Source of the DNA: Laetmonice hystrix
Taxonomy: Eukaryota
Assembly (NCBI GenBank): GCA_965235115.1
Contig: OZ249436.1
Location: 22,570,001 to 22,634,000, forward strand
Direction: 5' to 3'
Length of the DNA stretch: 64,000 nt
Shown here: piece after piece, positions 34,555 to 37,868 of the stretch
How positions within the stretch are numbered: the stretch's first letter is position 1
How the letters are laid out: each line of letters opens with the position of its first letter
The notes under the pieces: generated by a model
Seen by the model: the letters and a program-made list of their open reading frames with translations, nothing else
What the model was told of the DNA's origin: nothing
The model's database searches: none
Position numbers and translations under genes: made by a program

Positions 34555-34851
34555 CTAGAACGTTGACACTATGTTCATCAGAATTGTAGAGCATCGGTTT
34601 TGTATTGCCGTATTGTTTTTAAGTCAACCATCTTACAATGAATATAGTTAAGATTTAAGGTCCTGGAAACTGCGTTGTGTTATTGACTGAGTGAATTGTT
34701 GTTTTTGAAGTTTATTTCATCCAAAATCATTAAAACCCCCCGCCCCTTTTTACGCGTTTTCCCATGCAAATATGACATCTGAACAGTACATCATTATGTT
34801 TCAGTGAAAGCTATATGTTGAGGCCGGTCACGTATTTTATCGAGTGTAATC
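34555..34851. repeat. ~300-bp direct repeat, copy 1
   Basis: CTAGAACGTTGACACTATGTTCATCAG...GGTCACGTATTTTATCGAGTGT, repeated at 37555. Contains CCCCGCCC and ATGCAAAT. Confidence 0.9.
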
Positions 34852-35643
34852 TCTATAGGGTAAGGTCAAATCTACACCAGGATTATTAAGGTATTATCAA
34901 GGATCATTCCTTGGTGTTATCTCTAGAAAAGTGTTAATCTGGGCCTTTAACACCTGGCTCTAGTTAACACTTTGACAACACCTAGTTAACACTTTGATCA
35001 AACACTTTCTTTGCACCTCAGACTCAGTTTTAGCAATTAGCAGTTCCACCTGGGACCTGAGATTAAGGGGACACCTGAGTTATCCAGGTGTTTACAAGGT
35101 GTATTTTAGGTGTTTACACGTTGTTGAGACAGTATTAACTCAGTGTTAAGTAGACACACAGGACGAGGTCAAATTTTGGATTAGTAGAACACTTTCTTAA
35201 CACCCATGCAGCGTTAACACCCGCGAAGGGATAACTGTCCTAATTTTGACTTTTCTATAACTATTGACCACAGGCACCCGAGAGACAGCTTATTTCCCAA
35301 AATCCGAAAGCAAAGTCTCAGGTCTCTGTTTTAACTATTAAATGAATGGACAATGTTACGTAAATATATACTTGAGTTAGTAGATTGTCATATTGAGAGC
35401 CCGTACGAAAAGTTTCAGGCATGTTTGATCATTTATGACACAGTTGTGAGCGTTTTTGTATAGCTATCCTAATGGCACTAGTAGACTACCATGTTGTAAT
35501 GCCCCCATGACACAACAGCGACCACGGTGACCAAGCAGATCGCTGTTGGTCGCCGTCAACATCGGAAAACCCCCTCCAAGTGTGATTGCAATGCCGCTCC
35601 CACCCCGCTGGCACGACGTGGAAAAATGCTATTCTTGGACGAT

Positions 35644-36199
35644 TTAGGCCCATTCCGAACACCTCGGCCCAACTTCCGGTCGCTTCGCTAGTTGTGGTCT
35701 CGGACCTCGCAAGCCGTAAAGATATGGCAGAGATTCCATGATTTTGGGCACATCACAACTCGCGTAGTGTGCAATGTAGTTCATAGAACGTCGGTATTCG
35801 GCCTAACGCGGGATTGTTCATTGGGAAAGATGGATAATTTCCGAAGATTTGCAGTCTCGATCGTTCTTAGCAGCCGCGACACATTCAGTTTTGCAGTATT
35901 TATGAAATCATCCGACTTTACTATAGCTTGCATCAACTTAAGAAACGACGTCATACGCCCAAAGAAATCCCGAGGGAATTCCGAGTGAGACAGCTCGTCC
36001 GTAGGACGAACATTCACCTCTGTCTGACGATAAACAATGCTAATAGGAATGTCAACATCCAAAAAAGTATCTATAAAGACCTAAATAGATTTTTTCTGAC
36101 GTCTAATCCACTTGGTAGAGGTATCAAGCGGAGATCTGCTTTTAAACAAGCCAGATACTGCTTGTCTTTCACCTTTGTCGGTGTGTCGGCCGTCGCCAT
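35644..36199 (-). pseudogene. Frameshifted ORF of unknown function (~180 aa reconstructed)
   Basis: caaaATGgcg start (MATADTPTKVK...). Shifts into the 36062-35781 ORF and then into EYRRSMNYIAHY...CSEWA*. Confidence 0.4.
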
Positions 36200-36376
36200 T
36201 TTGACCACATTGTGTCACGTGATCCAACATGGTGACGACTGTGCGAGGGCCGAGAGAATCTTTATGTTTTGTTTTTGTTTTTGTACAGATTTTAAACTAT
36301 AATCGAATCAATATTAGAGCTATTATTTCGACTGGTTTAAATATTGTTAATTGGAAGGGCTCTCGGAAGGGGTATT

Positions 36377-36574
36377 TTAATACCAATTGTATGATGGCAT
36401 TTTAACTTTAACTCTCCTGTATACATGTTTTCTATTTCTTTGACGCAACTTAGATGTATTATTGGGTTTTTTTTCTTTGTAATATTCGGCTGATAATACA
36501 GCGATAGTAAATAAACTAGTTACAAGTAATGCGCCTAAACTAATTCGTTTTCTTCTTTGTGAATATGTAACCAT
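36377..36574 (-). CDS. Small 65-aa ORF with one hydrophobic segment and a basic tail
   Basis: MVTYSQRRKR-ISLGALLVTSLFTIAVLSA-EYYKEKK...; begins ~60 bp after the protease stop, same strand. Confidence 0.4.
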   Translation of the reverse strand: MVTYSQRRKRISLGALLVTSLFTIAVLSAEYYKEKKPNNTSKLRQRNRKHVYRRVKVKMPSYNWY

Positions 36575-36635
36575 TTTGCTAATTTAATGTTATGGCTGTT
36601 CCTAAGTCAGCATAAGGTCCTTTACCTAATCTGCT

Positions 36636-37170
36636 TTATCTGAGCAAGTTATTCCTTTTTAAATATGCATGCATAGTAAGAACCGAACGTACAACTGTGT
36701 TTGCATCGTAAACTTTGACTGTGATTTTGAAATTATTTTCAATTTCAGAATTTACAAAATGATCGTTAAACTCTCGATCAATTGTGAATTTGTTTATGAT
36801 ATCTTTCATACTTATGCCCAAACAACGCTGCCAAATAAAGTATATACAATATTGTCTACACACTGCAGAATATAGCCCTTGAATTTGTTTAATGTTTGCT
36901 AAATAAGGATATACTACTATCTTCTTTATCCTTTCGACGAAAATAGTAAGTCCACATGAATCAAAATACTCAATCAGTGAGTCTTTCCCGCTGGGTTTAT
37001 ATACAGCCAGCAAATGTTGACCGGAGTCAAAGCGTTTGGCAGTATTGACCCACATTATGCTCCCCCTGATTTTAAATTCTTCGGCATCGTATCTGATGAT
37101 ATACCCCTTGAAATGTATCTTTTGTGTCGGGGCAATTCTCTAATATTGTTTCAATTTCGAAATTATTCAT
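36636..37170 (-). pseudogene. Adenain-like (Polinton/Maverick/adenovirus) cysteine protease, decayed
   Basis: MNNFEIETIL...FQGVY.SD (frameshifts) WVNT....SGQHLLAVY...IEYFDSCG...NIKQIQGLYSAVCRQYCIYF...ND..V. His, Asp, Gln and Cys motifs appear in adenain order. Confidence 0.85.
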
Positions 37171-37554
37171 TCTCGTCCGTGTTCTGCTATATTTGCTTTT
37201 TTGCAAACATTTTTGTGTTTGGATTCCTGAAGAGTTTCTCACTTTTGTTAAAGAAATAGTATGATGTGTATAGATTTTGTAGTCGACATGAGTTATTTTG
37301 TATGCGTCGTATCAACAGTAGTTAGCCCCGGGGCTAACTATTATAGGGCCTACATGTACTATCAACTCGCGGTACTCCTTGTCTTAATTCAGGTGTCTTT
37401 CACTAGATGGCGGAAATGCTGACGCTTTCTTGACAGATGACTCCAATAGGGGGCAGGCATGTTCTTCCTCCGAGCAAGTCACCCCCAAACCACTACGGTA
37501 GTGGTTTGAGCTTACGCTCTAAACACTACCGTACACACCGTACCGTACAAAACA

Positions 37555-37868
37555 CTAGAACGTTGACACTATGTTCATCAGAATTGTAGAGCATCGGTTT
37601 TGTATTGCCGTATTGTTTTGAAGTCAACCATCTTACAATGTAGTTGAAATAAATAATATAGTTAAAAGCTAATGAAAACTGCGTTGTGTTATTGACTGAA
37701 TGAATTGTTGTTTTTAAAGTTTATATCATCCAAAATCATTAAAAAACCCCGCCCTTTTGTACGCGTTTTCCCATGCAAATATGACATCTGAACAGTAAGC
37801 CCCAACATTATTATATGTTTCCGTGAAAGCTAAGTTGAGGCCGGTCACGTATTTTATCGAGTGTGATC
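37555..37868. repeat. ~300-bp direct repeat, copy 2
   Basis: Colinear with 34555-34851, with small indels and substitutions. Confidence 0.9.

What the first reader, a model, noticed from the sequence alone, without database searches (positions are those of the whole stretch)
34555..37868. 3.0-kb direct-repeat-bounded cassette carrying an orphan viral adenain protease and two compact ORFs
Seen: ~300-bp direct repeats starting 3000 bp apart (34555, 37555), without TG..CA ends. They enclose three tightly packed, apparently intronless minus-strand genes: an adenain-like protease, a 65-aa membrane-type ORF and a ~180-aa unknown. Known: this protease normally sits in Polintons/Mavericks with pPolB, integrase, ATPase and capsid genes inside inverted repeats; none of these was recognised in the window. 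Inference: a non-autonomous or satellite unit, an integrated small circle or tandem-array remnant, or a rearranged fragment of a Polinton-like virus.
Basis: partly seen in the sequence, partly recalled or inferred. Interest (0 to 1): 0.75.

Follow-up and report, generated by a model that had tools for sequence, protein, structure and literature searches.

The report
Decayed Polinton protease relic among repeats
This is most likely a broken leftover of a Polinton/Maverick-type endogenous DNA virus (a dead maturation-protease gene and one small neighbour) padded by common host repeats, not a compact three-gene cassette, although why a capsid-less piece exists in a few copies is unexplained.

Summary
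The 300-bp direct repeat is real (276 of 316 columns identical) and the protease is a genuine Polinton-type adenain. The three-intact-gene cassette does not hold up. The protease is a pseudogene: it is split over different frames and two columns invariant in 39 homologues are changed. The 65-aa ORF is probably a real small gene but has no homologue found. The '180-aa ORF' is full of stops and lies in a host repeat at roughly 1,300-2,000 times single-copy depth; a second, mid-copy repeat fills most of the rest. Contig depth from one sample suggests the block 36.3-37.9 kb (65-aa ORF, protease, upstream DNA, probably the right repeat) has 2-4 copies about 5% diverged, while the left repeat and the DNA just inside it are single-copy. 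So the 3.3-kb unit is not repeated as a whole. No TSD, LTR ends, Helitron hairpin or circle junction was seen. One oddity remains: the capsid gene, within 700 bases upstream in 54 of 54 homologous loci, is absent here. Best reading: a rearranged, decayed Polinton fragment with a local duplication. The scan had not noted this on other DNA.

The parts
34555..34851 (.). Left copy of the ~300-bp direct repeat; non-coding; holds a GC-box-like and an octamer-like motif (names recalled); about single-copy depth
   Evidence: alignment; motifs at 34738, 34764; depth 1.0-1.2x flank; no Pfam match in the frames of the right copy
34852..35344 (.). Mostly a mid-copy interspersed repeat rich in GTGTTAA-type words, with weak inverted arms at 35034-35062 and 35316-35344; the first ~55 bases are single-copy
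   Evidence: bins 34908-35309, 40-146x flank depth; arms 72% complementary; word counts
35510..36261 (.).
   Evidence: summed depth 52,000-160,000 against about 60 for flanks, up to 45 contigs at a listed site, other copies run on past 36261; 1,326-2,006x; stops in all minus frames, no family, no homologue
36377..36574 (-). 65-aa ORF with a basic N-terminus, one hydrophobic segment and a basic tail; probable small accessory membrane protein of the virus (inferred)
   Evidence: (4 of 500 shuffles; 3 of 44 homologous loci have a small hydrophobic ORF after the protease); no homologue
36636..37170 (-). Polinton/Maverick-type adenain cysteine protease pseudogene; His, Asp, Gln and Cys columns kept; frame changes near 37100 and probably 37070; two otherwise invariant columns next to the catalytic His and Cys changed
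37171..37554 (.). Non-coding DNA upstream of the protease, where the capsid gene normally ends; includes a 61-base stretch (37317-37377) absent from sister copies and a strong hairpin at 37492-37534
   Evidence: capsid profile -0.2 and -1.1 bits; joint 37316-37378; (z -5.2, 0 of 200 shuffles)
37555..37868 (.). Right copy of the direct repeat; depth close to that of the protease block (about 3x), so probably part of the low-copy block; abuts further high-copy repeats from 37869

Best explanation
A non-functional relic of an endogenous Polinton/Maverick (adintovirus-type) element in an invertebrate genome. An internally deleted or rearranged piece kept the maturation protease, a small downstream membrane ORF and about 700 bases of non-coding upstream DNA that includes the 300-bp sequence, and lost the capsid gene and the rest (shown: content and absence; inferred: deletion). 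This ~1.6-kb block was copied two or three more times, either as a defective element moved by a helper or by segmental duplication (shown roughly: low copy number, ~5% divergence; inferred: route). At this locus alone a local rearrangement left a second copy of the 300-bp piece, and host repeats now fill most of the gap between the two copies (shown: depth profile; inferred: order of events). The window's copy has decayed neutrally and encodes no working protease.
For: Protease is Polinton-type: 1,136 homologues at E<=0.001, best 45% at E 3.6e-37; atlas 0.97 to Preplasmiviricota Peptidase_C5 clusters; profile of the alignment hits adenain at E 1.5e-6 to 2.5e-6; homologous loci include one with Pfam pPolB and rve genes. 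Broken frames and 2 of 9 invariant columns lost. The 14 listed window-versus-sister substitutions in the main frame fall 4/5/5 on codon positions 1/2/3 (from 40 rows shown, 200 not shown). Depth steps inside the cassette. The bin holding the inner end of the left repeat is at flank depth in all three runs (32.7, 75.1, 80). No TSD. Repeat divergence (19 of 295 aligned bases) is of the same order as window-sister divergence (24 of 509). Most vertebrate Mavericks are degraded fossils (PMC8097293, passages), and Polinton pieces have ended up as direct repeats at a rearranged locus (10.1101/2024.01.15.575659, passages).
Against: Depth is summed contig depth from one sample, which the tool says is no copy number. 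In run X1 the two repeat copies together have 1.94 times the protease depth, as two repeats per sister copy would give; X2 and X3 give 1.06 and 1.25. No listed contig bridges 37427-37555, so the link between the right repeat and the protease in sister copies rests on similar depth only. The loss of the capsid gene is shared by the sisters (they run through 37267-37427 on the window's upstream DNA), so a capsid-less piece was amplified, which plain decay does not explain. The flanks of sister copies were not seen.
Confidence: 0.62

Rival explanations
1. Slice of an ordinary Polinton lineage in which the protease does not follow the capsid gene; the 300-bp sequence is a piece of terminal repeat or a promoter, brought into direct orientation by two neighbouring insertions or an inversion, as at C. 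elegans eri-6/7.
For: The window's protease pairs with one distinct homologue, P0003 (SH-aLRT 97 in a quick tree), whose cluster mate lies on a 15,265-base contig, a Polinton-like size; its gene order could not be read. The repeat has promoter-like motifs. Precedent in 10.1101/2024.01.15.575659.
Against: 54 of 54 homologous loci with 700 bases upstream carry the capsid-family gene there. No AGTAGT/ACTACT end motif lies at either repeat boundary. No inverted partner and no other Polinton gene in 64 kb.
Confidence: 0.15
2. One reading: a direct-repeat-bounded mini-element (repeat, protease, 65-aa ORF, repeat), made as a circle or tandem unit and moved by a helper; the window's copy was later swollen by nested repeats.
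For: The repeat is low-copy, not a common dispersed repeat. The capsid-less block has 2-4 copies. Run X1 depth ratio 1.94. Repeat divergence matches the age of the copy.
Against: Ratios of 1.06 and 1.25 in the two deeper runs; DNA just inside the left repeat is single-copy; no go-back or long-skip joint among the 15 shown, while a sister-specific joint of depth 60-151 is shown; no TSD; substitutions spread evenly over codon positions; no direct repeat of 100 bases or more spanning the protease in 13 longer homologous loci checked.
Confidence: 0.13
3. A non-autonomous Helitron-type element whose terminus is the 300-bp repeat captured the viral fragment by reading past its end.
For: On the minus strand both copies end in CTAG, and the right copy reads A|TC...CTAG|T, the Helitron end pattern (PMC6544945, passages, for TC and CTRR; insertion between A and T is recalled). 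A strong hairpin lies 20 bases before the CTAG at 37555 on the plus strand.
Against: No sub-terminal hairpin inside the repeat (z 0.3 and 0.4); the left copy has neither the TC start nor a following T; the plus-strand hairpin is 43 bases long and its CTAG is followed by A; the repeat is low-copy.
Confidence: 0.08

Closest known systems
Polinton/Maverick (adintovirus) PRO, adenain-like cysteine protease, Pfam PF00770 clan
   Same: Catalytic His, Asp, Gln, Cys columns and the family's N- and C-terminal pattern; about 178 codons; 45% identical to the nearest homologue; 32 of 40 aligned members match PF00770 at E<=0.1; intronless.
   Different: Frameshifted, two invariant columns changed; the window's piece alone gives no PF00770 match; no capsid gene upstream; no pPolB, integrase, ATPase, TIR or TSD in the window.
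Degraded Maverick/adintovirus fossils of animal genomes (PMC8097293; PMC8502044)
   Same: Stop- and frameshift-broken viral genes, low copy number, no discernible TIRs, interrupted by insertions.
   Different: Only the protease and one small ORF are left, between two direct repeats.
Polinton-derived direct repeats at C. elegans eri-6/7 (10.1101/2024.01.15.575659)
   Same: Polinton remnants at a rearranged locus with a normally single or inverted sequence present as direct repeats.
   Different: There the repeats are proven TIRs of about 700 bases and serve trans-splicing of a host gene; here the origin of the repeat is unproven, it encloses viral remains, and no function is shown.

Membership tests
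Polinton/Maverick-type adenain protease | Sequence similarity to Polinton PRO and adenain | tested here: met
Polinton/Maverick-type adenain protease | Catalytic His, Asp, Gln, Cys columns | tested here: met
   alignment; 7 of 9 invariant columns kept; naming these columns as catalytic is recalled
Polinton/Maverick-type adenain protease | Intact reading frame | tested here: not met
   pieces in different frames
Polinton/Maverick element | Protein-primed DNA polymerase B and retroviral-like integrase | tested here: not met
   profiles of these families from homologous loci find nothing at E<0.01 in 64 kb; family identity
Polinton/Maverick element | Major capsid gene directly before the protease; penton and ATPase | tested here: not met
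   54 of 54 homologous loci have it within 700 bases, window -1.1 bits. The label 'capsid' for this family is inferred from size and position (no Pfam match)
Polinton/Maverick element | Terminal inverted repeats with AG-type end motifs and 6-bp TSD | tested here: not met
LTR-type element (LTR, TRIM, LARD) | TG..CA ends and a 4-6 bp TSD | tested here: not met
   CT..TC; only one offset 4-mer
LTR-type element (LTR, TRIM, LARD) | Primer-binding site matching a host tRNA | not testable with these tools
   no host genome held
Non-autonomous Helitron | 5' TC and 3' CTRR ends | tested here: inconclusive
   right copy fits on the minus strand, left copy fits only at the CTAG end
Non-autonomous Helitron | 16-20 base palindrome near the 3' end | tested here: not met
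   z 0.31 and 0.40
Integrated circle or tandem array | Whole unit repeated, or a junction joining its two ends | tested here: inconclusive
   unit not at uniform depth; no such joint among 15 shown, 24 not shown; contigs only, one sample

The most novel reading that the evidence does not exclude
A small family of capsid-less, polymerase-less Polinton-derived mini-elements (300-bp repeat, protease, 65-aa membrane gene) that propagates with direct rather than inverted repeats, as circles or tandem units moved by a helper, with at least one sister copy still encoding an active adenain. That would be a satellite-like dependent of Polintons carrying only the maturation enzyme.
Probability: 0.12. 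Interest if true: 0.6.

Novelty: new member of a known kind. Interest (0 to 1): 0.22.

Why it matters
As a decayed Polinton fragment it matters little: such fossils are the rule in animal genomes. It adds a divergent protease lineage with a single close relative in the searched collections, and a case where the otherwise constant capsid-protease pairing is broken in several copies. If the copies proved to be direct-repeat-bounded and mobile, they would define a minimal dependent element of Polintons and a way to ask how defective Polintons spread.

Tried and rejected
No whole genome is held, so the genome-wide blastn could not be run. Word-based homologue search with the protease piece found nothing, nor did IMG/VR scans with it, with the 65-aa ORF or with a 19-base motif of the repeat; phmmer against PDB with the single piece gave no real match. 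The contigs of the nearest homologue were not retrieved (one search returned one unrelated 35% locus). No RNA holder listed. Rfam gave only a chance match and ARAGORN no tRNA. The third ORF as a viral gene: rejected; it was not searched in the protein atlas. Coding remains in the repeat, the upstream DNA or the left flank: none by Pfam or against ORFs of the homologous loci. Terminal inverted repeats for the high-copy segment: an imperfect match reached by 10 of 300 shuffles, not accepted. Assembly artefact for the left repeat: rejected (table 8). The tree is the quick one, not the careful search, and is mostly unresolved. Literature searches (listings and abstract starts only) showed no title or abstract start describing a direct-repeat-bounded protease-only cassette; the library lacks most subscription papers and no supplements were read. 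Earlier-finding look-ups by sequence, place and words found nothing on this DNA.

Full report
Observation. The two repeats are there: 34555-34851 and 37555-37868, with 276 identical, 19 mismatched and 21 gap columns of 316 and no third copy in the window. They end CT..TC, not TG..CA, and no target-site duplication flanks the pair; only one offset 4-mer turned up. No whole genome is held.

The protease is real and of the Polinton type. The 167-codon stop-free piece finds 1,136 proteins at E<=0.001 among 1.84 billion, the best (P0003) at 45% identity and E 3.6e-37. The atlas places it at 0.97 beside Preplasmiviricota Peptidase_C5 clusters. In an alignment of 40 (the window's piece and 39 of the top hits), 32 members match PF00770 at E<=0.1, and the profile hits solved adenain. 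A quick tree of 56 rows pairs it with P0003 (support 97) among proteases of Polinton-like contigs; most other forks are open.

It is a pseudogene. The start is at 37170. Model positions 1-24 lie in one frame and 35 onwards in another, and the linker between them scores best in the third frame (20 against 10 and 4). So there is one sure frame change near 37100 and a probable second near 37070. Seven of the nine columns identical in all 39 other sequences are kept, and the two lost ones lie next to the catalytic His and Cys.

The 65-aa ORF (36377-36574) starts 62 bases after the protease stop. Four of 500 dinucleotide shuffles of that stretch give an ATG ORF as long, none as hydrophobic, and 3 of 44 homologous loci with 600 bases downstream have a small hydrophobic ORF there. 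It has no homologue by Pfam, atlas (best 0.77), IMG/VR scan or the fetched loci. I read it as a probable accessory gene.

The third gene is not supported. Each minus frame over 35480-36262 holds 4 to 12 stops, six frames give no Pfam family, and the longest piece has no homologue. Contigs of three runs of one sample, laid at 80% likeness, give summed depth of 52,000-160,000 over 35511-36314 against about 60 in the flanks (39 in the shallower run X1): 1,326-2,006 times. Other copies run on past 36261, so this is a truncated copy of a major host repeat. A second repeat at 40-146 times covers 34908-35309.

Copy structure. The same call gives the left repeat 1.0-1.2 times flank depth, the protease block 2.2-4.0 times and the right repeat 3.1-3.3 times. 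The main sister form differs from the window at 24 of 509 bases in the longest contig and by small length differences; the sisters were not rebuilt, so whether any is intact is unknown. Fourteen listed substitutions in the main frame fall 4, 5 and 5 on codon positions 1, 2 and 3 (40 rows were shown and 200 not), as neutral decay would give. Single-copy contigs with no or one difference bridge both ends of the left repeat and the junction at 35510 (table 8), so the composite exists in the sample. The bin that holds the inner end of the left repeat is at flank depth in all three runs, so sisters do not share that DNA. None of the 15 joints shown closes a circle or tandem unit, while a sister-specific skip at 37316-37378 is shown at depth 60-151; 24 joints were not shown. 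Against my reading, the two repeats together have 1.94 times the protease depth in run X1, as two repeats per copy would give, but 1.06 and 1.25 in X2 and X3. Summed contig depth is no true copy number, all runs are one sample, and no listed contig ties the right repeat to the protease in a sister.

Context. The ~440-aa family that I take as the major capsid protein (inferred from size and position; no Pfam match) lies within 700 bases upstream in 54 of 54 loci long enough (26 dropped as too short) and within 384 bases in 57 of 61; the window scores -1.1 and -0.2 bits. One such locus carries Pfam pPolB and rve genes. Of 20 family profiles built from 91 loci, only the protease hits the 64-kb window below E 0.01. 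So the orphan state is real, and sister contigs share the non-coding upstream DNA.

Mechanism. Most likely (0.62) a Polinton piece lost its capsid gene and the rest by deletion or rearrangement, was copied a few times as a defective element or with host DNA, and at this locus gained a second copy of a 300-bp upstream piece; host repeats fill most of the gap and the copy has decayed. Content, breakage, absence of other genes and the uneven depth are shown; the order of events and the route of copying are inferred. Rivals are a Polinton lineage with another gene order whose terminal or promoter piece came to lie in direct orientation (0.15), a direct-repeat-bounded mini-element (0.13), and Helitron-type capture (0.08; CTAG ends on the minus strand but no sub-terminal hairpin).

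Comparison with what is known. Intact vertebrate Mavericks have the capsid gene followed by the protease, TIRs and 6-bp TSDs, and most copies are degraded fossils without discernible TIRs (PMC8097293, passages). Degraded adintovirus sequences are widespread in animal germlines (PMC8502044, passages). Polinton TIRs form direct repeats at the rearranged C. elegans eri-6/7 locus (10.1101/2024.01.15.575659, passages). Helitron end features are from PMC6544945 (passages) and general Polinton gene content from PMC6431247 (passages). The protease is a member of the Polinton adenain family; the locus is not a Polinton element, since polymerase, integrase, capsid, TIRs and TSD were tested and not found. 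It is filed as a Polinton-derived relic. Searches (listings only) showed no report of a direct-repeat-bounded protease-only cassette; no supplements were read.

Verdict. Observation partly confirmed, interpretation partly supported, interest 0.22. The most novel reading not excluded, a capsid-less mini-element with direct repeats and possibly an active sister copy, has probability about 0.12 and would deserve about 0.6.

Noticed in passing
window 37317-37377: A 61-base stretch absent from sister copies begins with AGTAGT and a 26-base near-perfect palindrome, which looks like two Polinton-type end motifs joined head to head; it may equally be a scrap of a mid-copy repeat (bin depth 518-1039). 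Folding z was only -0.4 for the wider stretch.
   Followed up: partly
window 37492-37534: Strong 43-base hairpin (z -5.2) with an alternative pairing at 37486-37508, 20 bases before the right repeat; role unknown.
   Followed up: partly
window 38928-39300: Depth 231-268 in runs X2 and X3, like the protease block, so the low-copy stretch may extend beyond the right repeat; it may instead be a separate small repeat family.
   Followed up: no
window 33633-33841: Short inverted-repeat element (35-base arms) at about 20,000-76,000 summed depth: a high-copy MITE-like repeat.
   Followed up: no
window 27813-31960: LINE-type reverse transcriptase (PF00078) split by an insertion of about 2 kb that resembles 23.0-24.0 kb, plus a 338-base duplication at 30526/30863 with 100% identity that may be recent or an assembly slip.
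   Followed up: no
window 16854-24927: Pieces that look like an LTR retrotransposon with an envelope-like gene (20933-21895 and 24205-24927; label recalled, no Pfam match; weak SH3_Tf2-1 match E 0.0023 at 17385-17864), interrupted by inverted-repeat elements.
   Followed up: no
window 50841-53474: An uninterrupted 877-aa ORF for a secretin-family 7TM receptor with a somatomedin B domain.
   Followed up: no
P0046, P0161: Annotated sea-cucumber proteins in which the protease is fused to upstream Polinton-like sequence, possibly gene-model artefacts over a decayed element.
   Followed up: no
L051, L061, L062, L070: In these 4 of 61 homologous loci another ~167-aa gene lies between the capsid-family gene and the protease.
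   Followed up: no
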